In this document: piece after piece, positions 3,921-61,309 of the stretch
How the letters are laid out: the number at the start of each line of letters is the position of its first letter
Numbering within the stretch: the stretch's first letter is position 1
DNA from: Pyrinomonadaceae bacterium
Lineage (GTDB): Bacteria; Acidobacteriota; Blastocatellia; Pyrinomonadales; Pyrinomonadaceae
NCBI GenBank assembly: GCA_039933315.1
Contig: JBDTOI010000002.1
Coordinates: 992 to 64,991, forward strand
Reading direction: 5' to 3'
Length of the DNA: 64,000 bases
Notes under the pieces: model-generated
Told to the model about the DNA's origin: nothing
What the model saw: the letters and a program-made list of their open reading frames with translations, nothing else
Database searches by the model: none
Made by a program: the position numbers and the translations under genes

Positions 3921-5084
3921 TTGCGGACTTTTTTTTCAATAGCGTGTCTCTTCTTGATGGGCGCAGTCGTGTTGCCCGTGGGGGCCAAGGTTGGAATCCC
4001 CAACAATGAGGCGGTTAAGACCTTACCTGATCAAATTGAGGGCTTTCGCGCGCGGGGACCGGCGGTAGTACCCGACGACGGCGGTTTCGAAGCCCGGTTG
4101 GTGGATTTCGGTGTACAGGCCAGGGCTGTGCGGGTCTATGCCTCCCAGAGCGGCGATCTATTTCAGGTTGAAGTCATTAAAACTATCAATGACTCTGGTG
4201 CATATTCTCTTCTAACTGCGCACCGAACGAATTCCCAGGAGATTAAGCTTGGATCTGTGGGCACAGCGGGTTTTGTTGAGGCAGCGCGAATCGCCTTCTT
4301 CAAGGGCACAAACTTTGTAACGGTTACTCGCACCGGCAAAGAAAGCCCGAACGCTGATAAACTCATTGTGCTGGCGCGAAGTTTGGCCCAGGGTCTCGAT
4401 GCTTCCGAGGATGACATCCCTGTTCTGGTGAGGCACCTTCCCTACTGGCAAACATCGCAGCCCTGGGCGCGGTACGCAGTAAGTTCCAATGGCCTGAAGC
4501 AGGATGTGCAGGGGCAACCGATCCTGAATGAAGTGAGTTTTGAAGGTGGTTCAGAGGCGGTCGCTGCCCGCTACGAGGCTTCAAACCTTGTAATTGTCGA
4601 ATTCACAACTCCACAGCTCGCGGGAGACAACGACCGGCGAATCACGGCAAAGATACCGGAGTTGCGTCAGACAGGACAGCCTGTTCCTTCCGCCTATCGG
4701 CGCGTAGGTAACTATTCGGTTTTCGTTTTCAACGCAACGGATGAAAAGACCGCAGCACGGCTAATAGACCAGGTGAAATATGAACAGGTAGTGCAGTGGC
4801 TGGGCGAGAATCCGTACTGGTTTGAAAAAGCGCAAAGACTCTATGCCGGCACAACGGCCGGGGTACTAATCGCGGTTTTGCAGAGTTCCGGCCTTTCAAT
4901 CCTGATTTGCCTGGCGATTGGTGGGGCCTTGGGAGGCATCCTTTTCCAGCAACGGCGAAAGAGTCAGAGTTCCACGGGGTACTCTGATGCTGGGGGGATG
5001 GTGCGGCTCAATATCGATGACATGACCGCGGAAAGCGATCCTGGAAAATTGCTGGGTGAGGCTTCGCCCCGATCCGTAAAATAA
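3921..5084 (+). CDS. hypothetical exported protein with C-terminal membrane anchor
   Basis: TTG start. N-terminal signal-like 'FFSIACLFLMGAVVLPVGA'. C-terminal TM 'AGVLIAVLQSSGLSILICLAIGGALGGILF'. No motif recognised. Confidence 0.55.
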   Translation: MRTFFSIACLFLMGAVVLPVGAKVGIPNNEAVKTLPDQIEGFRARGPAVVPDDGGFEARLVDFGVQARAVRVYASQSGDLFQVEVIKTINDSGAYSLLTAHRTNSQEIKLGSVGTAGFVEAARIAFFKGTNFVTVTRTGKESPNADKLIVLARSLAQGLDASEDDIPVLVRHLPYWQTSQPWARYAVSSNGLKQDVQGQPILNEVSFEGGSEAVAARYEASNLVIVEFTTPQLAGDNDRRITAKIPELRQTGQPVPSAYRRVGNYSVFVFNATDEKTAARLIDQVKYEQVVQWLGENPYWFEKAQRLYAGTTAGVLIAVLQSSGLSILICLAIGGALGGILFQQRRKSQSSTGYSDAGGMVRLNIDDMTAESDPGKLLGEASPRSVK

Positions 5085-33000: not shown

Positions 33001-33245
33001 ACAAAAAGTCAGACTCAAACGAGTCCGCGAAGCGGACGGACGAAAATAGCCCAGCAGTTCACTGCTGGGGCTCAGGTTAAAGGGCGATTGCAAGTCCGTG
33101 AAACGGACGGCTGAAATCTCATAATTAAAGCCATAGTGACCAAGTCAGCCGTCCGTTTCACGGACTGCATCTGCGTAAGCTCGTCTTCTTCCCAGCGATG
33201 AATCGCTGGGCTATTGTCTTTCGTCCGCTATCGCGGACTTTTTGT
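33001..33245. repeat. family-D MITE/REP-like palindromic element (copy D1)
   Basis: Arms ACAAAAAGTC..CGCGAAGCGGAC..AATAGCCCAGCAGTTCACTGCTGGG and the inverse copy at 33191-33245. Inner hairpins GTCCGTGAAACGGAC / GTCCGTTTCACGGAC. Confidence 0.88.
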
Positions 33246-37093: not shown

Positions 37094-37285
37094 GTGTCAC
37101 AGACTTCAGTCTGTGATTCCCGATCGCAGACACAAGTTTTGACCTTCATGCTTTTCCAGCGAGCAGATGGCCACTTGCAATCACAGACTGAAGTCTGTGC
37201 CACATTGAAGACACAAGTTTTGACCTTCATGCTTTCCACGTTGAGCAGATGGCCACTTGCAATCACAGACTGAAGTCTGTGCCAC
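37094..37285. repeat. family-E hairpin element (copy E1) with ~81-bp-period tandem duplication
   Basis: GTGTCACAGACTTCAGTCTGTGAT (37094-37117) is inverted relative to ATCACAGACTGAAGTCTGTGCCAC (37180-37203 and 37262-37285). Direct repeat units at 37129-37203 and 37210-37285 are near-identical. Confidence 0.9.
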
Positions 37286-37289
37286 TAAT

Positions 37290-38423
37290 TTGATTAAAGT
37301 CCTGCACATTCTGGATTCGTTAAATCGCGGTGGCGCTGAGACCATGATGCTGGACGTTTGTCGTAACGCGCGTGCTAATGGTCTGGATTTGACGTTCGTG
37401 GCGACCGGAGGCGGCGATCTCGAGAATGAGTTTCGCGACTCCGGCGTTGAGTTTATCCGGCTGAAAAGAAAACTACCTGTCGATCTGGCCCTGGCTTTAG
37501 AGCTGCGGCGGATTATCGCCGAGCACGGCATTCGGGTGGTGCATAGCCATCAACCAGTCGAAGCCCTGCACCTGTACCTGGCCACTCGCGGCAGTGACAC
37601 TAAAAAAGCACTGACACTGCATGGGGTTTACCCGGGAACTAAAAACGAGCTGGCCCTCAGATTTGTCCTGCCTCGCATCGACGCTAAGATCGCCGTCAGT
37701 CAGAATCTTTTACAAGAGCTGCAGGCGAATAAGACTATTGCGGGTGAAAACTGTTTTCTCATCAATAACGGCGTCGACCCGGCGCGACTGCAGTCTGCGG
37801 GGCGAAAACTGCGCACCGAATTGGGCCTGCAGGATGACGCATTACTCCTGGGCATGGTCGGCAACTTCCAACCTGTGGCGCTGAAGGATCAGTTAACAGT
37901 GTGCCGGGCGCTACCGGATATCTTCGCTCGAGTTCCCCAGGCGCAATTCATCTTTGCCGGCGCGCGCTCTGCAGCAGCGCCGGAGCTTTTTGATGAATGC
38001 GTAGAGCTTTGCCGTCGAGAAGGTATTGATCATCGAGTCCACTTCCTCGGAAAGCGCACTGACATTGCGGACGTGTTGAGTTCGCTCGATGTATTCGTAC
38101 TTTCCAGTCTACGTGAAGGCTCGCCGATTTCCGTGATCGAAGCCATGATGGCCGGTGTGCCCACGGTGCTATCCGATATTCCGGCGCTACGCGAGGTCTC
38201 GAATGAAGGAGAGCAGGCGGTTTTGTTTCGAACGGGAGATCGGGATGATCTGGCAGCAAAACTTGCCGCCCTTGTTAACGACTCAGAGGAGCGTCAACGT
38301 CTTGCTTCCAACGCCAGACAATGGGCCCGGGAAAGTTTTGGTATCGATCGGCACATCGCGGATTTGGTGAGACTTTATGATTCGTTGGTATCATCGGATG
38401 CCCTACCACTCGCGAACGTATGA
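37290..38423 (+). CDS. glycosyltransferase family 4
   Basis: 'IKVLHILDSLNRGGAE' is a typical GT4 N-terminus, with 'SLREGSPISVIEAMMAGVPTV'. The track start at 37257 (TTG) lies inside repeat E1, so the in-frame TTG at 37290 is proposed. Confidence 0.8.
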   Translation: MIKVLHILDSLNRGGAETMMLDVCRNARANGLDLTFVATGGGDLENEFRDSGVEFIRLKRKLPVDLALALELRRIIAEHGIRVVHSHQPVEALHLYLATRGSDTKKALTLHGVYPGTKNELALRFVLPRIDAKIAVSQNLLQELQANKTIAGENCFLINNGVDPARLQSAGRKLRTELGLQDDALLLGMVGNFQPVALKDQLTVCRALPDIFARVPQAQFIFAGARSAAAPELFDECVELCRREGIDHRVHFLGKRTDIADVLSSLDVFVLSSLREGSPISVIEAMMAGVPTVLSDIPALREVSNEGEQAVLFRTGDRDDLAAKLAALVNDSEERQRLASNARQWARESFGIDRHIADLVRLYDSLVSSDALPLANV

Positions 38424-38483
38424 CCCGCGCTGCTATACTCAAATTTGAAATACAGTCGCCGGTCCGCACAAAAGGCAACCGAA

Positions 38484-38735
38484 ATGAAAGAAATATTCAC
38501 TGCTACTATATGGCAAGAGGGGAAGTGGTACATAGCTCAGTGCAGGGAGTTTGAGATTGCCAGTCAGGGCAGTACCAAAGAGGAGGCGCTGGAGAATCTG
38601 ACTGAGGCTATTGAGGCCCACTTCGCGCCTCCGGTCGCGACCCTTGTTCCAGAAGTGATAGCCTTCGAAGCCGAGGTCGAACCGTGGGCCCTGGTAGATG
38701 CCGACGCGCGCGCCAGCGGTGACCGGGTTGACTAA
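38484..38735 (+). CDS. hicB: HicB-family antitoxin (N-terminal HicB fold only)
   Basis: 'FTATIWQEGKWYIAQCREFEIASQGSTKEEALENLTEAIEAHF'. ATG at 38484; the track start at 38445 is TTG. Its stop overlaps the hicA ATG (TAATG). Confidence 0.75.
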   Translation: MKEIFTATIWQEGKWYIAQCREFEIASQGSTKEEALENLTEAIEAHFAPPVATLVPEVIAFEAEVEPWALVDADARASGDRVD

Positions 38736-38959
38736 TGGCGTTGCTTAGATCTCTCCCTTACCGTGTCGTGAAGCGCAAACTCGAGACAGCTGGATTCGAA
38801 GAGAGACCCGGCAGAGGGAGTCATCGTAAGTTTGTGAAGTTCACTCGAGAGGGTGTAGTTACCGCCATCGTTCCTCAGCACCGCGAGATTGCCCTCGGCA
38901 CACTGCGGAGTATCTTACGCCAGGCAATGTTGACTCCTGACGAATTCGACGCGTTATGA
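38735..38959 (+). CDS. hicA: HicA-family mRNA interferase toxin
   Basis: 74 aa. 'VVKRKLETAGFEERPGRGSHRKFVK...VTAIVPQH.EIALGTLRSILRQA' with the catalytic His context GSHRKF. Confidence 0.8.
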   Translation: MALLRSLPYRVVKRKLETAGFEERPGRGSHRKFVKFTREGVVTAIVPQHREIALGTLRSILRQAMLTPDEFDAL

Positions 38960-39026
38960 GGCCGTCGAAAGACAAACGGATTATCTAAAACCCACCTTCT
39001 CACGAGGCTCAGAATGAGAAAGCAGT

Positions 39027-40019
39027 ATGGCTCATAAGAAAAAGCTTCAAGTATTTGTTTCCTCAACCTACACCGACCTGCACGAAGAGCGACAAGCCGC
39101 CGTCGAAGCTATCCTAACCGCAGGACACATACCTGCCGGCATGGAACTCTTCGCCGCCGGAGATCAATCGCAGATGAGCGTCATCAGGCGGTGGATAGAT
39201 GAATCCGATGTTTACTTGCTGATTCTGGGAGGACGTTACGGCAGCATCGAACCGGAGAGTGGCAAGAGTTATATCGAACTGGAGTATGAGTATGCAGTCG
39301 CGCAAAACAAACCATTCTTCGCGGTTGTGATTGAGGAAGATCATCTTGAGAAAAAGGTAAAGAGTGCAGGTACCAAGGTGATCGAGCGGGATAATCCTCA
39401 AAAACTCAAGGACTTTAAGGCGCAGGTCCTGGGCAAGTTGGTGAAGTTCTGGCGTGATCCCCGTGACATAAAACTCGCCATTCTGGAAACGATGTCTGAA
39501 TTCAGTCGGCGTGATGATCTCACTGGTTGGATTCCGGGTAGCGAGGCGATGAACGCGGGCGCGGTAGCGGAGGAGATGGCCCGACTGGCCAAGGAAAATG
39601 CCGAGTTGCGTCAACAAGTCGCAAACATGTCACCGGATCCCGCATCCTATAACGGCCTAACATTCGATGGGATGTATAAGATCCTGTTAGAGGAAGAGGC
39701 AAATATTTCCGAATTCTCGCCAGAATCTATTGAAGTATTTAACCAGGTTGCTGAAATCTTCGGAGATTCAAAACCAGGTCTTATTCACCTGTTCTGGTTG
39801 AGCGGCAACCTGTTTCGACAGCGGCATTATTTGAACTTTTACCTGGGCCAACCGCCGCATGGGATAATGTTAAGATTAGCCGAATTCGGTCTCGTCGTTG
39901 ACGAAGGATCCTTCAGCTTCATTCTAACGGAAACTGGCAGGCAATTACTCCTGCGGTTAAGACTGGAGCGCGACACCAGAAAGGCAGAGGAACTTGTCAG
40001 ATACAACATGCCCTTCTAA
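39027..40019 (+). CDS. DUF4062-domain protein (TIR/nucleoside deoxyribosyltransferase-like N-domain + coiled coil + unknown C-domain)
   Basis: 'KLQVFVSSTYTDLHEERQAAVEAILTAGHIPAGMELFAAGDQS...SDVYLLILGGRYGS...YIELEYEYA' matches my memory of the DUF4062 signature. Central 'AEEMARLAKENAELRQQVANM'. The C-terminal ~125 aa are unassigned. Confidence 0.7.
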   Translation: MAHKKKLQVFVSSTYTDLHEERQAAVEAILTAGHIPAGMELFAAGDQSQMSVIRRWIDESDVYLLILGGRYGSIEPESGKSYIELEYEYAVAQNKPFFAVVIEEDHLEKKVKSAGTKVIERDNPQKLKDFKAQVLGKLVKFWRDPRDIKLAILETMSEFSRRDDLTGWIPGSEAMNAGAVAEEMARLAKENAELRQQVANMSPDPASYNGLTFDGMYKILLEEEANISEFSPESIEVFNQVAEIFGDSKPGLIHLFWLSGNLFRQRHYLNFYLGQPPHGIMLRLAEFGLVVDEGSFSFILTETGRQLLLRLRLERDTRKAEELVRYNMPF

Positions 40020-51490: not shown

Positions 51491-51711
51491 TAGTCCGCGA
51501 AGCGGCCGAGTGAAAATAGCCCAGCACTTGAGTGCTGGGGTGTTTCGCAGAGTGGTGGCCACAGTCCGTGAAACGGACGGCTGCATTGCGATTCTTCGGT
51601 TCAACGACCAATGTTGTTCAGTCGTCCGTTTCACGGACTATCTACCAGACGGCTTGGCGAATCCCAGCACTGAAGTGCTGGGCTATTTTCATACGTCCAC
51701 TACGCGGACTA
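51491..51711. repeat. family-D MITE/REP-like element (copy D2)
   Basis: Arms at 51491-51539 and 51663-51711 with the same module order as D1. The stem of the CCCAGC.. hairpin differs from D1 by compensatory changes. Confidence 0.9.
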
Positions 51712-53556: not shown

Positions 53557-53655
53557 GTGGCACAGACTTCAGTCTGTGAAAAACTACGCCCTGGTGGCCA
53601 CTTCAATCTCTGATGAATCTACCGCGCTATATTCACAGACTGAAGTCTGTGCCAC
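53557..53655. repeat. family-E hairpin element (copy E2)
   Basis: GTGGCACAGACTTCAGTCTGTGAA (53557-53580) is inverted relative to TTCACAGACTGAAGTCTGTGCCAC (53632-53655). The right arm overlaps the last 7 codons plus stop of the MFS gene. Confidence 0.9.
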
Positions 53656-61217: not shown

Positions 61218-61309
61218 GTGGCACAGACTTCAGTCTGTGATGGAAGATGCGGAATTTCTGGGATAGGGGTGAGTTTTAAAGTCGGATCACAGACTGAAGT
61301 CTGTGCCAC
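61218..61309. repeat. family-E hairpin element (copy E3)
   Basis: GTGGCACAGACTTCAGTCTGTGAT (61218-61241) is inverted relative to ATCACAGACTGAAGTCTGTGCCAC (61286-61309). It ends 4 nt from the dxs stop codon. Confidence 0.9.

What the first reader, a model, noticed from the sequence alone, without database searches (positions are those of the whole stretch)
38445..40019. hicB-hicA plus a DUF4062 (TIR/deoxyribosyltransferase-like) gene: lower-GC insertion in the glycan locus, a candidate undescribed defence-type module
Seen: three co-directional genes. The hicB stop overlaps the hicA ATG (TAATG at 38733-38737), and a 67-nt gap separates hicA from the 330-aa gene. The module is wedged between a GT4 gene and a convergent GT-C gene of an otherwise purely biosynthetic locus. 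Hand counts of several 60-nt lines in 39.3-39.8 kb give about 40-45% GC, against about 55-60% in neighbouring genes. That is consistent with horizontal acquisition. Established: HicA (GSHRKF context present) is a ribosome-independent mRNA interferase neutralised by HicB. TA modules and TIR-like/NAD- or nucleotide-processing effectors are recurrent components of defence islands. Inference: the three genes may act together, for example as a TA-gated or TA-stabilised abortive-infection module. I know of no characterised system with this composition.
Basis: partly seen in the sequence, partly recalled or inferred. Interest (0 to 1): 0.8.

Follow-up and report, generated by a model that had tools for sequence, protein, structure and literature searches.

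The report
Swarozyc-like NADase gene beside unrelated hicBA
The 330-aa gene is a new acidobacterial member of the recently described one-gene DUF4062 (TIR-like NAD+-destroying) anti-phage family, and the hicB-hicA toxin-antitoxin pair next to it looks like an unrelated later insertion, not part of a new three-gene system.

Summary
The three ORFs, the TAATG overlap, the 67-nt gap and the HicA and DUF4062 calls are all real. The GC claim is overstated. The DUF4062 gene is 49.5% GC, the lowest of 48 genes, but not 40-45%. hicB and hicA are 54-57%, like the flanks.

The 330-aa protein matches the solved Swarozyc protein KpSwz (profile E 1e-35, nearly end to end). It keeps the catalytic Glu (E86) and the other family motifs. 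Its layout is a TIR-like domain, a helical stalk and a C-terminal winged-helix domain.

Three 2026 preprints show that such DUF4062 proteins are single-gene NADase abortive-infection systems, so the gene class is no longer undescribed.

The three-gene module is not supported:
- Two syntenic relatives carry the DUF4062 gene at the same place in the same glycan locus without hicBA.
- None of 80 other genomic loci has hicA or hicB nearby, and no neighbour family recurs.
- Close hicBA relatives sit in unrelated contexts without DUF4062.

The DUF4062 gene has diverged about as much as its flanks, so it is an old resident. hicBA is the newcomer.

Verdict: a new member of a known kind next to an ordinary toxin-antitoxin pair. 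Function is inferred by homology only, and the trigger is unknown.

The parts
38484..38735 (+). hicB-like antitoxin gene. It encodes 83 aa from the ATG at 38484; the mechanical ORF starts at a TTG at 38445. The protein is short and single-domain, with no C-terminal DNA-binding domain detected.
   Evidence: ORF and sequence. Pfam PF24113 (DUF7387) at 31.1 bits, above its 27.9 cut-off, with no Pfam HicB model hit. The identical 83-aa protein is named 'HicB family antitoxin' by NCBI, and relatives are named 'RNase H-like HicB family' by JGI. A homologue lies directly upstream of hicA in 14 of 17 related loci.
38735..38959 (+). hicA toxin gene (74 aa). Its ATG overlaps the hicB stop (TAATG at 38733-38737). 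The Gly-Ser-His motif is at aa 28-30.
   Evidence: PF07927, E 5.2e-14. PDB HicA-family matches 1whz (E 1.5e-6) and 9svk (E 2.9e-4). Sequence.
39027..40019 (+). Gene for a 330-aa single-protein DUF4062 (NIR/TIR-like) NADase defence protein with the Swarozyc-like layout.
   Evidence: PF13271, E 4.8e-31. KpSwz (PDB 10wc), phmmer E 8.9e-29 and profile E 1.3e-35 over positions 4-317 against 3-322 of 326. AF2 model with pLDDT 85.
39039..39536 (+). TIR-like DUF4062 catalytic domain (about aa 5-170). Family motifs present: F10, Q49/W56/E59, E86-Y87 and G167-W168.
   Evidence: These residues are invariant in 41 homologues. The motifs are named in the Evangelion paper (F11, E87-Y88, Q/W/E, W162). The top Foldseek hits are TIR domains (SARM1, RPP1, RUN1, SPARTA TIR-APAZ, AbTir).
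39282..39284 (+). GAG codon of E86, the predicted catalytic glutamate. It is equivalent to KpSwz E97 and Eva01 E87.
   Evidence: E86 is invariant. It aligns with index 84 of the PDB chain, which is Ala in the E97A construct. The offset of 13 was checked with W238/Y239, which fall at indices 225/226. It aligns with Eva01 E87. Codon read.
39555..39626 (+). Helical stalk / coiled-coil segment (aa 177-200, AEEMARLAKENAELRQQV).
   Evidence: Predicted helix 177-200. It aligns with the KpSwz stalk sequence LFELNELRKRNEELSEKV. L187, E190, N191 and L194 are invariant.
39639..40016 (+). C-terminal auxiliary (AUX) domain (aa 205-330), a predicted winged helix-turn-helix fold. It is the presumed sensor of a phage-derived trigger.
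   Evidence: AF2 of this part alone: pLDDT 92.9, pTM 0.87. The best PDB fold matches are all MarR-type winged-helix proteins, but they are weak (E 0.02-0.4, TM 0.4-0.48). There is a weak ScoC/Hpr sequence hit. Only the last 32 columns align with the KpSwz AUX (probability 12.6%). The KpSwz AUX is described as an HTH/winged fold.

Best explanation
Two independent elements lie side by side.

(A) The DUF4062 gene, 39027-40019.
- It encodes a single-protein abortive-infection system of the DUF4062 (NIR, TIR-like) NADase class. Its layout is closest to Swarozyc: an N-terminal TIR-like NADase domain with catalytic Glu E86, then a helical stalk, then a C-terminal winged-helix AUX domain.
- The following steps are inferred by homology to KpSwz and Eva01. 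The protein rests as an autoinhibited oligomer. The AUX domain binds a phage-made component: the portal protein in KpSwz, replication-associated functions for Eva01, and an unknown trigger here. That binding re-arranges the TIR-like domains. [quoted passage not shown]
- The gene is an old resident at the end of a surface-glycan operon in this Pyrinomonadaceae/Blastocatellia lineage.

(B) hicB-hicA, 38484-38959.
- This is an ordinary type II toxin-antitoxin pair: the HicA mRNA interferase and a short HicB-like antitoxin.
- It most probably inserted later into the GT4/DUF4062 junction.
- It may read through into the DUF4062 gene, but it is not a conserved functional partner.

Shown here: homology, motifs, fold, synteny and the lack of co-occurrence. 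Inferred: NADase activity, phage triggering, abortive infection and the order of events (insertion rather than loss).
For: Family and fold:
- PF13271, E 4.8e-31.
- KpSwz (PDB 10wc/11cq/11cv), E 8.9e-29 with the single sequence and 1.3e-35 with the profile, aligned over 4-317 against 3-322 of 326. Identity is 34% over 203 aa.
- Eva01 of pMW2, 41-43% identity over the core.
- Invariant F10, Q49/W56/E59, E86-Y87 and G167-W168 in 41 homologues. These match the motifs and catalytic Glu reported for Eva01 and KpSwz.
- AF2 model: TIR domains are the top structural hits. The AUX model resembles MarR-type winged-helix proteins, as described for the KpSwz AUX.

Published function: NADase, abortive infection, need for AUX, phage triggers and enrichment near defence genes.

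Single-gene nature:
- In 80 genome loci no neighbour family occurs in more than 4 loci.
- Among 149 immediate neighbours no Pfam family has more than 3 members.

Independence from hicBA:
- Orthologues in the same glycan locus lack hicBA. In L001/L002 the GT4 stop overlaps the DUF4062 start. L083/L084 have a different small antitoxin-like gene upstream.
- There is no HicA or HicB hit in the 80 loci.
- 17 metagenomic hicA loci have hicB upstream in 14 cases and DUF4062 in none.
- hicB homologues of 77-78% identity sit next to peptidase S9/ATP-grasp or MutL/HAD genes.

Old residency: the DUF4062 protein is 75-78% identical to its syntenic orthologues, while the flanking proteins are 46-83% identical.
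Against: - No experiment exists on this protein or its close clade.
- The AUX domain shows only marginal sequence similarity to the KpSwz AUX (32 columns, probability 12.6%). Its fold matches are weak (E at least 0.02). So the trigger, and even the sensing mode, may differ.
- The KpSwz structures are not in the Foldseek library used (entries up to April 2026), so no direct structure-to-structure comparison was made.
- The locus is not a defence island. PADLOC hits elsewhere in the window are generic housekeeping look-alikes.
- In L001 the gene is translationally coupled to a glycosyltransferase gene, which is unusual for a defence gene.
- hicBA and the DUF4062 gene are co-directional, with no predicted terminator in the 67-nt gap, so transcriptional coupling here is possible.
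- Most hicA metagenome contigs are short. Only about 10 of 17 have at least 300 nt downstream.
Confidence: 0.78

Rival explanations
1. One reading: hicB, hicA and the DUF4062 gene form one three-gene, TA-gated or TA-stabilised abortive-infection module that works as a unit.
For: - The genes are co-directional and tightly spaced. The hicB and hicA genes overlap, the gap to the DUF4062 gene is 67 nt, and no terminator-like site lies in that gap.
- The only promoter-like site lies upstream of hicB.
- Eva01-like genes on plasmids are often near TA modules. pMW2 has an Fst toxin gene just upstream of Eva01.
Against: - The two closest orthologues, in the same syntenic locus, lack hicBA.
- None of 80 genome loci has a HicA or HicB relative within 10 kb by phmmer.
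- HicA is not among the recurrent Pfam families of 149 immediate neighbours.
- None of 17 close hicA loci, and none of the hicB contexts on long contigs, has DUF4062.
- KpSwz, Eva01 and Vulcan defend as single genes.
Confidence: 0.05
2. The DUF4062 protein is an accessory enzyme or regulator of the surface-glycan pathway, for example acting on a nucleotide or nucleotide-sugar, rather than an immune protein. Its place in the operon would reflect that function.
For: - It holds the same position at the end of the GT4 operon in three genomes, and its start overlaps the GT4 stop in L001.
- It has diverged like its flanks.
- The window has no defence island.
- DUF4062 is distantly related to nucleoside 2-deoxyribosyltransferases.
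- One distant homologue (L003) also has a glycosyltransferase as neighbour.
Against: - Homologues at 53-63% full-length identity occur in Bacteroidota, Gemmatimonadota, Chloroflexota and other phyla, with unrelated and non-recurring neighbours.
- All catalytic and family motifs of the NADase defence proteins are kept.
- The architecture (stalk plus variable winged-helix sensor) is that of Swarozyc.
- The C-terminal region is the variable part of the family, as expected for a sensor under diversifying pressure.
Confidence: 0.07
3. The DUF4062 gene is a recent horizontally acquired lower-GC island, acquired with or without hicBA.
For: - It has the lowest GC (49.5%, z -2.75) and the lowest GC3 (z -1.84) of 48 genes in the window.
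- The family is patchy across phyla at high identity, which implies horizontal transfer at some time.
- The literature reports spread by horizontal transfer.
Against: - The gene occupies the same site in three genomes, with 75-78% protein identity. That lies within the 46-83% range of the flanking genes.
- Its GC3 is about equal to that of the neighbouring GT4 gene. Much of the low GC sits at codon position 2 (35%), which reflects amino-acid composition.
- No tRNA, integrase or flanking direct repeats were seen near it.
- hicBA has host-like GC.
Confidence: 0.1

Closest known systems
Swarozyc (KpSwz, Klebsiella pneumoniae; PDB 10wc/11cq/11cv; Osinski et al., bioRxiv 10.64898/2026.05.01.722283)
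   Same: - It is a single protein of nearly the same length (326-aa construct against 330 aa).
- It has an N-terminal DUF4062/TIR-like domain with the catalytic Glu (E97 there, E86 here).
- A GW motif is followed by a helical stalk.
- The C-terminal AUX domain has an HTH/winged fold.
- The profile alignment runs almost end to end, E 1.3e-35.
   Different: - Identity is only 34% over the first 203 aa.
- The AUX domains are barely alignable: 32 columns, probability 12.6%.
- The portal-binding W238/Y239 hairpin has no conserved counterpart in the variable region of this family.
- The host is a soil Acidobacteriota MAG, and the gene sits in a glycan operon rather than a defence island.
- The trigger is unknown.
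Evangelion Eva01 (S. aureus plasmid pMW2, WP_000072390.1, 324 aa; Ibarra-Chavez et al., bioRxiv 10.64898/2026.06.25.731849)
   Same: - It is a single-gene DUF4062 core plus AUX, of similar length.
- The core is 41-43% identical, slightly closer than the KpSwz core.
- The F11, Q/W/E, E87-Y88 and W162 motifs are all present here as F10, Q49/W56/E59, E86-Y87 and W168.
   Different: - There is no alignment beyond aa 171. Eva01's AUX is unrelated in sequence.
- Eva01 is plasmid-borne in Staphylococcus, while this gene is chromosomal.
Other NIR/DUF4062 systems: Avs2-NIR, Vulcan (NIR + HEAT repeats) and Vesta (NIR protein + alkaline phosphatase) (Le Mouellic et al., bioRxiv 10.64898/2026.09.04.749371)
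   Same: They share the same effector domain and catalytic Glu. They act by NAD+ depletion and abortive infection.
   Different: This protein has no STAND NTPase, no HEAT repeats and no alkaline-phosphatase partner gene.
Canonical TIR-domain NADases (SARM1, plant TIR-NLRs, SPARTA TIR-APAZ, AbTir)
   Same: The flavodoxin-like TIR fold gives the best structural matches to the model. The catalytic Glu is shared.
   Different: Sequence identity is 10-17%. DUF4062 forms a separate family and uses a different dimer interface in KpSwz.
HicAB type II toxin-antitoxin systems
   Same: - HicA is PF07927 with the Gly-Ser-His motif.
- The antitoxin gene is upstream, with stop/start overlap.
- The pair is conserved in 14 of 17 related loci.
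   Different: - The antitoxin is short (70-83 aa) and matches PF24113/DUF7387 rather than a Pfam HicB model.
- No RHH/HTH DNA-binding domain was detected.

Membership tests
Swarozyc-type single-gene DUF4062 NADase defence | N-terminal DUF4062 / TIR-like domain | tested here: met
   PF13271, E 4.8e-31. KpSwz, E 8.9e-29 and 1.3e-35. TIR domains are the top Foldseek hits.
Swarozyc-type single-gene DUF4062 NADase defence | Catalytic glutamate equivalent to KpSwz E97 | tested here: met
   E86 is invariant in 41 homologues. It aligns with the Ala of the E97A PDB construct; the index offset of 13 was verified with W238/Y239. It also aligns with Eva01 E87.
Swarozyc-type single-gene DUF4062 NADase defence | Helical stalk after the TIR-like domain | tested here: met
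   Predicted helix 177-200, aligned with the KpSwz stalk. Its heptad-like residues are conserved.
Swarozyc-type single-gene DUF4062 NADase defence | C-terminal AUX domain of HTH/winged fold, homologous to the KpSwz AUX | tested here: inconclusive
   The fold is winged-helix-like: AF2 pLDDT 92.9, with MarR-type proteins as top hits but weak E values of 0.02-0.4. Sequence similarity to the KpSwz AUX is marginal (probability 12.6%, 32 columns), although the whole-protein profile alignment runs to KpSwz residue 322. The KpSwz coordinates are not in the Foldseek library.
Swarozyc-type single-gene DUF4062 NADase defence | Works alone, with no conserved partner gene | tested here: met
   No neighbour cluster occurs in more than 4 of 80 loci. 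No Pfam family has more than 3 of 149 immediate neighbours.
Swarozyc-type single-gene DUF4062 NADase defence | Phage-triggered (portal) NAD+ hydrolysis and abortive infection | not testable with these tools
   This needs biochemistry and phage assays. It is known only for KpSwz and relatives.
Evangelion (Eva01 lineage) | DUF4062 core motifs F11, Q/W/E, E87-Y88 and W162 | tested here: met
   F10, Q49/W56/E59, E86-Y87 and W168 are invariant. hhalign probability is 99.8%, with 41% identity over 3-171.
Evangelion (Eva01 lineage) | Eva01-type AUX region | tested here: not met
   There is no alignment beyond aa 171.
HicAB type II toxin-antitoxin | HicA toxin domain with conserved Gly-Ser-His | tested here: met
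   PF07927, E 5.2e-14. PDB matches 1whz and 9svk. GSH at aa 28-30.
HicAB type II toxin-antitoxin | Cognate HicB antitoxin encoded directly upstream | tested here: met
   There is a stop/start overlap. The partner is conserved in 14 of 17 loci. Sources name it HicB family. However, only PF24113/DUF7387 is hit in Pfam.
HicAB type II toxin-antitoxin | HicB C-terminal DNA-binding (RHH/HTH) domain for autoregulation | tested here: not met
   The protein is 83 aa, and its relatives are 70 aa. No such domain appears in Pfam or PDB searches.
   hicBA is absent from both syntenic relatives, which were sampled as four contigs, and from 80 of 80 genome loci. None of 17 hicA loci, and none of the long hicB contigs, has DUF4062.
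Multi-component NIR systems (Vesta, Avs2-NIR, pAgo-NIR) | Partner alkaline phosphatase, fused STAND NTPase or an Argonaute | tested here: not met
   No such domains occur in the protein or in adjacent genes of the window.

The most novel reading that the evidence does not exclude
In this one lineage the inserted hicBA cassette may have been co-opted as the expression switch of the Swarozyc-like gene. Insertion separated the gene from the GT4 operon that drives it in relatives. Its transcription would now read through from the TA promoter, which in type II systems is de-repressed when the labile antitoxin is degraded under stress or infection. The NADase sensor would then be induced just when HicA is freed, giving a two-layer abortive-infection unit. 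The evidence does not exclude this for this locus: the genes are co-directional, the gap is 67 nt, and no terminator is predicted. Nothing supports it beyond adjacency, and it is not conserved anywhere else that was sampled.
Probability: 0.06. Interest if true: 0.5.

Novelty: new member of a known kind. Interest (0 to 1): 0.25.

Why it matters
That is a good call, but the class is now described. Three points remain of modest value.

1. This is a large soil-bacterial clade of Swarozyc-like proteins. More than 100 full-length relatives of 53-76% identity were listed, from Acidobacteriota, Bacteroidota, Gemmatimonadota and Chloroflexota. Their winged-helix sensor domain is barely alignable with the portal-sensing AUX of KpSwz, so the clade probably recognises a different trigger.

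2. The defence-type gene is stably embedded at the end of a surface-glycan operon, and is even translationally coupled to a glycosyltransferase gene in one relative. It does not sit in a defence island.

3. The junction just upstream of the gene has independently received small TA-type genes in two lineages.

None of these changes how the systems are thought to work.

Tried and rejected
- PADLOC v2 (2023) and NCBIfam gave no useful hit for the 330-aa protein. These libraries predate the 2026 descriptions.
- The HicB-like protein has no PDB sequence relative.
- I first took E84 as the catalytic Glu, from the raw alignment to the PDB chain. I rejected this because position 84 varies in the family, E86 is invariant, and the PDB chain carries the E97A mutation at the column aligned with E86.
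- Foldseek could not test the match to KpSwz directly, because its PDB copy ends in April 2026 and lacks those entries.
- Looking up the window's own protein gave only a 3.2-kb contig, with no extra context.
- The P0011 context had no DNA available.
- The promoter/terminator scan is at chance level: 1 promoter-like site against 2.2 expected, and 4 terminator-like sites against 3.3. It is used only to say that no terminator-like site lies between hicA and the DUF4062 gene.
- PADLOC hits elsewhere in the window (mad2 x3, RTasPolA, BrxHI, DEDDh) coincide with generic methyltransferases, DNA polymerase A and similar housekeeping genes. I do not take them as a defence island.
- I made no rigorous defence-enrichment statistic of my own. 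I rely on the published figures: 20% against 3.9% expected, and about 20% in islands.
Full report
**1. What is in the sequence**

The window comes from a Pyrinomonadaceae (Acidobacteriota) MAG; an identical protein, P0001, is on record.
- The hicB-like ORF runs from 38445 (TTG) to 38735. The probable start is the ATG at 38484, which gives the 83-aa protein that NCBI annotates.
- hicA runs from 38735 to 38959. Its ATG overlaps the hicB stop in TAATG at 38733-38737.
- The 330-aa ORF runs from 39027 to 40019, after a 67-nt gap.
- The flanks are a GT4 glycosyltransferase gene (+) and a convergent 524-aa PMT_2/GT-C gene (-). The wider locus holds GT2, GT1, MurJ-like flippase, methyltransferase, GDSL, epimerase and UDP-glucose dehydrogenase genes.

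**2. Base composition**

The hand-counted 40-45% GC is too low.
- The DUF4062 gene is 49.5% GC, and its 400-nt windows run 47-51%.
- It is nevertheless the lowest of the 48 genes of at least 150 aa (mean 56.2%, sd 2.4, z = -2.75). Its GC3 is 55.6% (z = -1.84), about the same as the adjacent GT4 gene at 56.3%. Its GC at codon position 2 is only 35%, so part of the deficit is amino-acid composition.
- hicB (56.6%) and hicA (53.8%) are host-like.
- The three genes are therefore not one compositional block.

**3. Identity of the 330-aa protein**

- Pfam DUF4062 matches aa 8-90 at E 4.8e-31. PADLOC v2 (2023) and NCBIfam give nothing useful.
- A full-text search found three 2026 preprints that characterise the domain.
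  - Osinski et al. show that DUF4062 is a TIR-like NADase, and that single proteins made of DUF4062 plus an auxiliary domain form the Swarozyc defence system. KpSwz needs E97 and its AUX domain. It depletes NAD+ and causes abortive infection. It is switched on when its HTH/winged AUX domain binds the phage portal.
  - Le Mouellic et al. rename the domain NIR. They show NAD+ depletion in Avs2-NIR, Vulcan and Vesta, and enrichment of NIR genes near defence genes (20.0% against 3.9% expected).
- The window protein hits the solved KpSwz chain (PDB 10wc/11cq/11cv, 326 aa) at E 8.9e-29 over aa 5-211. A profile of 41 homologues hits it at E 1.3e-35, aligned over positions 4-317 against 3-322 of 326. 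BLASTP identity is 34% over 203 aa.
- The core is 41-43% identical to Eva01 of pMW2, but that alignment stops at aa 171. KpSwz and Eva01 are 35% identical to each other in the core, so the three are roughly equidistant lineages.

**4. Catalytic residue and motifs**

- In the 41-sequence alignment F10, Q49, W56, E59, E86, Y87, G167 and W168 are invariant. These are the F11, Q/W/E, E87-Y88 and W162 motifs reported for Eva01.
- The raw alignment to the PDB chain places KpSwz 'TE' opposite E84 and an Ala opposite E86. The deposited construct, however, is the E97A mutant. Chain indices 225/226 are the W238/Y239 of the paper, so the offset is 13, and index 84 (Ala) is residue 97.
- Hence the invariant E86 (GAG at 39282-39284) is the catalytic Glu equivalent. 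E84 varies in the family.

**5. Architecture**

- The AF2 model of the whole protein (pLDDT 85) shows three parts: a beta-alpha domain over about aa 5-160, a long helix at 177-200, and a compact C-terminal domain.
- The best PDB fold matches of the whole model are TIR domains: SARM1, RPP1, RUN1, L6, SPARTA TIR-APAZ and AbTir.
- Modelled alone, aa 205-330 gives pLDDT 92.9 and pTM 0.87. The fold is helices plus a beta-hairpin wing. Its top matches are all MarR-type winged-helix proteins, with weak scores (E 0.02-0.4, TM 0.4-0.48). This agrees with the HTH/winged fold reported for the KpSwz AUX.
- At sequence level, only the last 32 columns of the AUX profile align with the KpSwz AUX (probability 12.6%). 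The region corresponding to the portal-binding hairpin is the most variable part of the family.
- I conclude that the layout is Swarozyc-like, but the sensor is divergent and the trigger is unknown.

**6. Is hicBA a partner?**

- hicA is a solid HicA: PF07927 at E 5e-14, PDB matches 1whz and 9svk, and the GSH motif.
- The upstream protein is a short HicB-like antitoxin. It hits PF24113/DUF7387, and the source databases name it HicB family.
- Three tests argue against a functional link with the DUF4062 gene.
  - (a) Synteny. A Blastocatellia genome (P0003; L001/L002) has the same locus order: GT2-GT1-MurJ, then GT4 followed by DUF4062, then the convergent 525-aa gene, a 546-aa gene and GDSL. 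There the DUF4062 start overlaps the GT4 stop and there is no hicBA. A second relative (P0002; L083/L084) has the same locus, with a different small antitoxin-like gene (PF09720, weak) on the other strand upstream and no hicBA. Protein identity of DUF4062 to these orthologues (75-78%) falls within the 46-83% range of the flanking genes. So the DUF4062 gene is an old resident, and hicBA is the difference between the genomes.
  - (b) Homologue contexts. In 80 genome loci from many phyla, phmmer with the window's HicA and HicB finds nothing within 10 kb. Clustering of 707 neighbours finds no family in more than 4 loci. Pfam scanning of 149 immediate neighbours finds no family with more than 3 members. 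PADLOC finds only scattered defence-type neighbours: pAgo/TIR-type, PDC candidates, SoFic and mad3.
  - (c) The reciprocal test. Of 17 metagenomic loci with hicA relatives of 41-89% identity, 14 have hicB directly upstream and none has DUF4062 or GT4. hicB relatives on long contigs lie between peptidase S9 and ATP-grasp genes, or between MutL and HAD genes, sometimes with a decayed hicA.
- hicBA is thus an autonomous small cassette that lands at operon ends.

**7. Residual doubts**

- The locus is not a defence island.
- No terminator-like site separates hicA from the DUF4062 gene, so read-through transcription in this genome is possible. I cannot exclude a locally co-opted regulatory link, which I give as the novel case at about 6%.
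- The stable, even translationally coupled, position behind a glycosyltransferase gene keeps a small probability on a glycan-related role. The unrelated contexts of homologues in other phyla argue against it.

**8. Verdict**

The gene is a defence-type TIR-like effector, but it is not a three-gene system.
- The effector class is no longer undescribed.
- This is a new, divergent member of the Swarozyc/Evangelion class of single-gene DUF4062 NADase defence proteins, next to an ordinary hicBA pair.
- NADase activity, triggering and abortive infection are inferred by homology, not shown here.

Noticed in passing
window 37098-37115, 37182-37199, 37264-37281, 53561-53578, 53634-53651, 61222-61239, 61288-61305: An 18-nt perfect palindrome, CACAGACTGAAGTCTGTG, occurs at 7 sites, against 0 expected in shuffles. 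Three copies sit in about 82-nt tandem units in the divergent MurJ/GT4 intergenic region, where GC dips to 45%. The others occur as pairs about 70 nt apart. It looks like a REP-type extragenic palindrome family.
   Followed up: partly
window 37257-37290: The mechanical TTG start of the GT4 ORF (37257) lies inside the palindromic repeat unit. The real start is more likely the TTG at 37290 (LIKVLHILDS...), which shortens the gene by 11 codons.
   Followed up: no
window 33022-33069 (-), 33191-33239 (+), 51492-51539 (-), 51663-51710 (+): There are four Rfam Acido-Lenti-1 RNA motifs above the gathering score (39-43.5 bits). They form two inverted pairs about 170 nt apart, in intergenic regions at the edges of the glycan locus. 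The paired, opposite-strand arrangement suggests a repeat element rather than single sRNA genes.
   Followed up: no
L083 9396-9635 (and L084 5591-5830): In the closest syntenic relative, the space just upstream of the DUF4062 gene holds a different small antitoxin-like gene (79 aa, PF09720 Unstab_antitox, weak) on the opposite strand, with no obvious toxin partner. The GT4/DUF4062 junction may therefore be a recurrent landing site for TA-type genes.
   Followed up: partly
L105-L110, L112, about 4200-4430 (downstream of hicB homologues): Several soil-metagenome contigs carry an intact 70-aa hicB homologue followed by only a 33-50-aa remnant, or nothing, where hicA should be. L111 keeps the full 74-aa hicA. 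This suggests toxin decay with antitoxin retention.
   Followed up: no
L001 10001-10011: In the Blastocatellia relative the DUF4062 start codon overlaps the end of the GT4 gene by 11 nt. The putative defence gene is therefore translationally coupled to a glycosyltransferase gene, which is unusual for immune genes.
   Followed up: partly
L115 2185-2277 (pMW2, NC_005011.1 3559-3651): On S. aureus pMW2 the characterised Eva01 DUF4062 gene is also preceded by a toxin-antitoxin element, a type I Fst-family toxin gene about 210 nt upstream. The Evangelion paper notes that TA modules are frequent neighbours on plasmids. This adjacency looks like a feature of mobile or variable DNA rather than a system.
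   Followed up: no
window 38684-38732 (HicB aa 68-83): The window's HicB-like protein has a 13-aa C-terminal extension (PWALVDADARASGDRVD) that is absent from most 70-aa relatives. Alignments to relatives stop at about aa 66.
   Followed up: no
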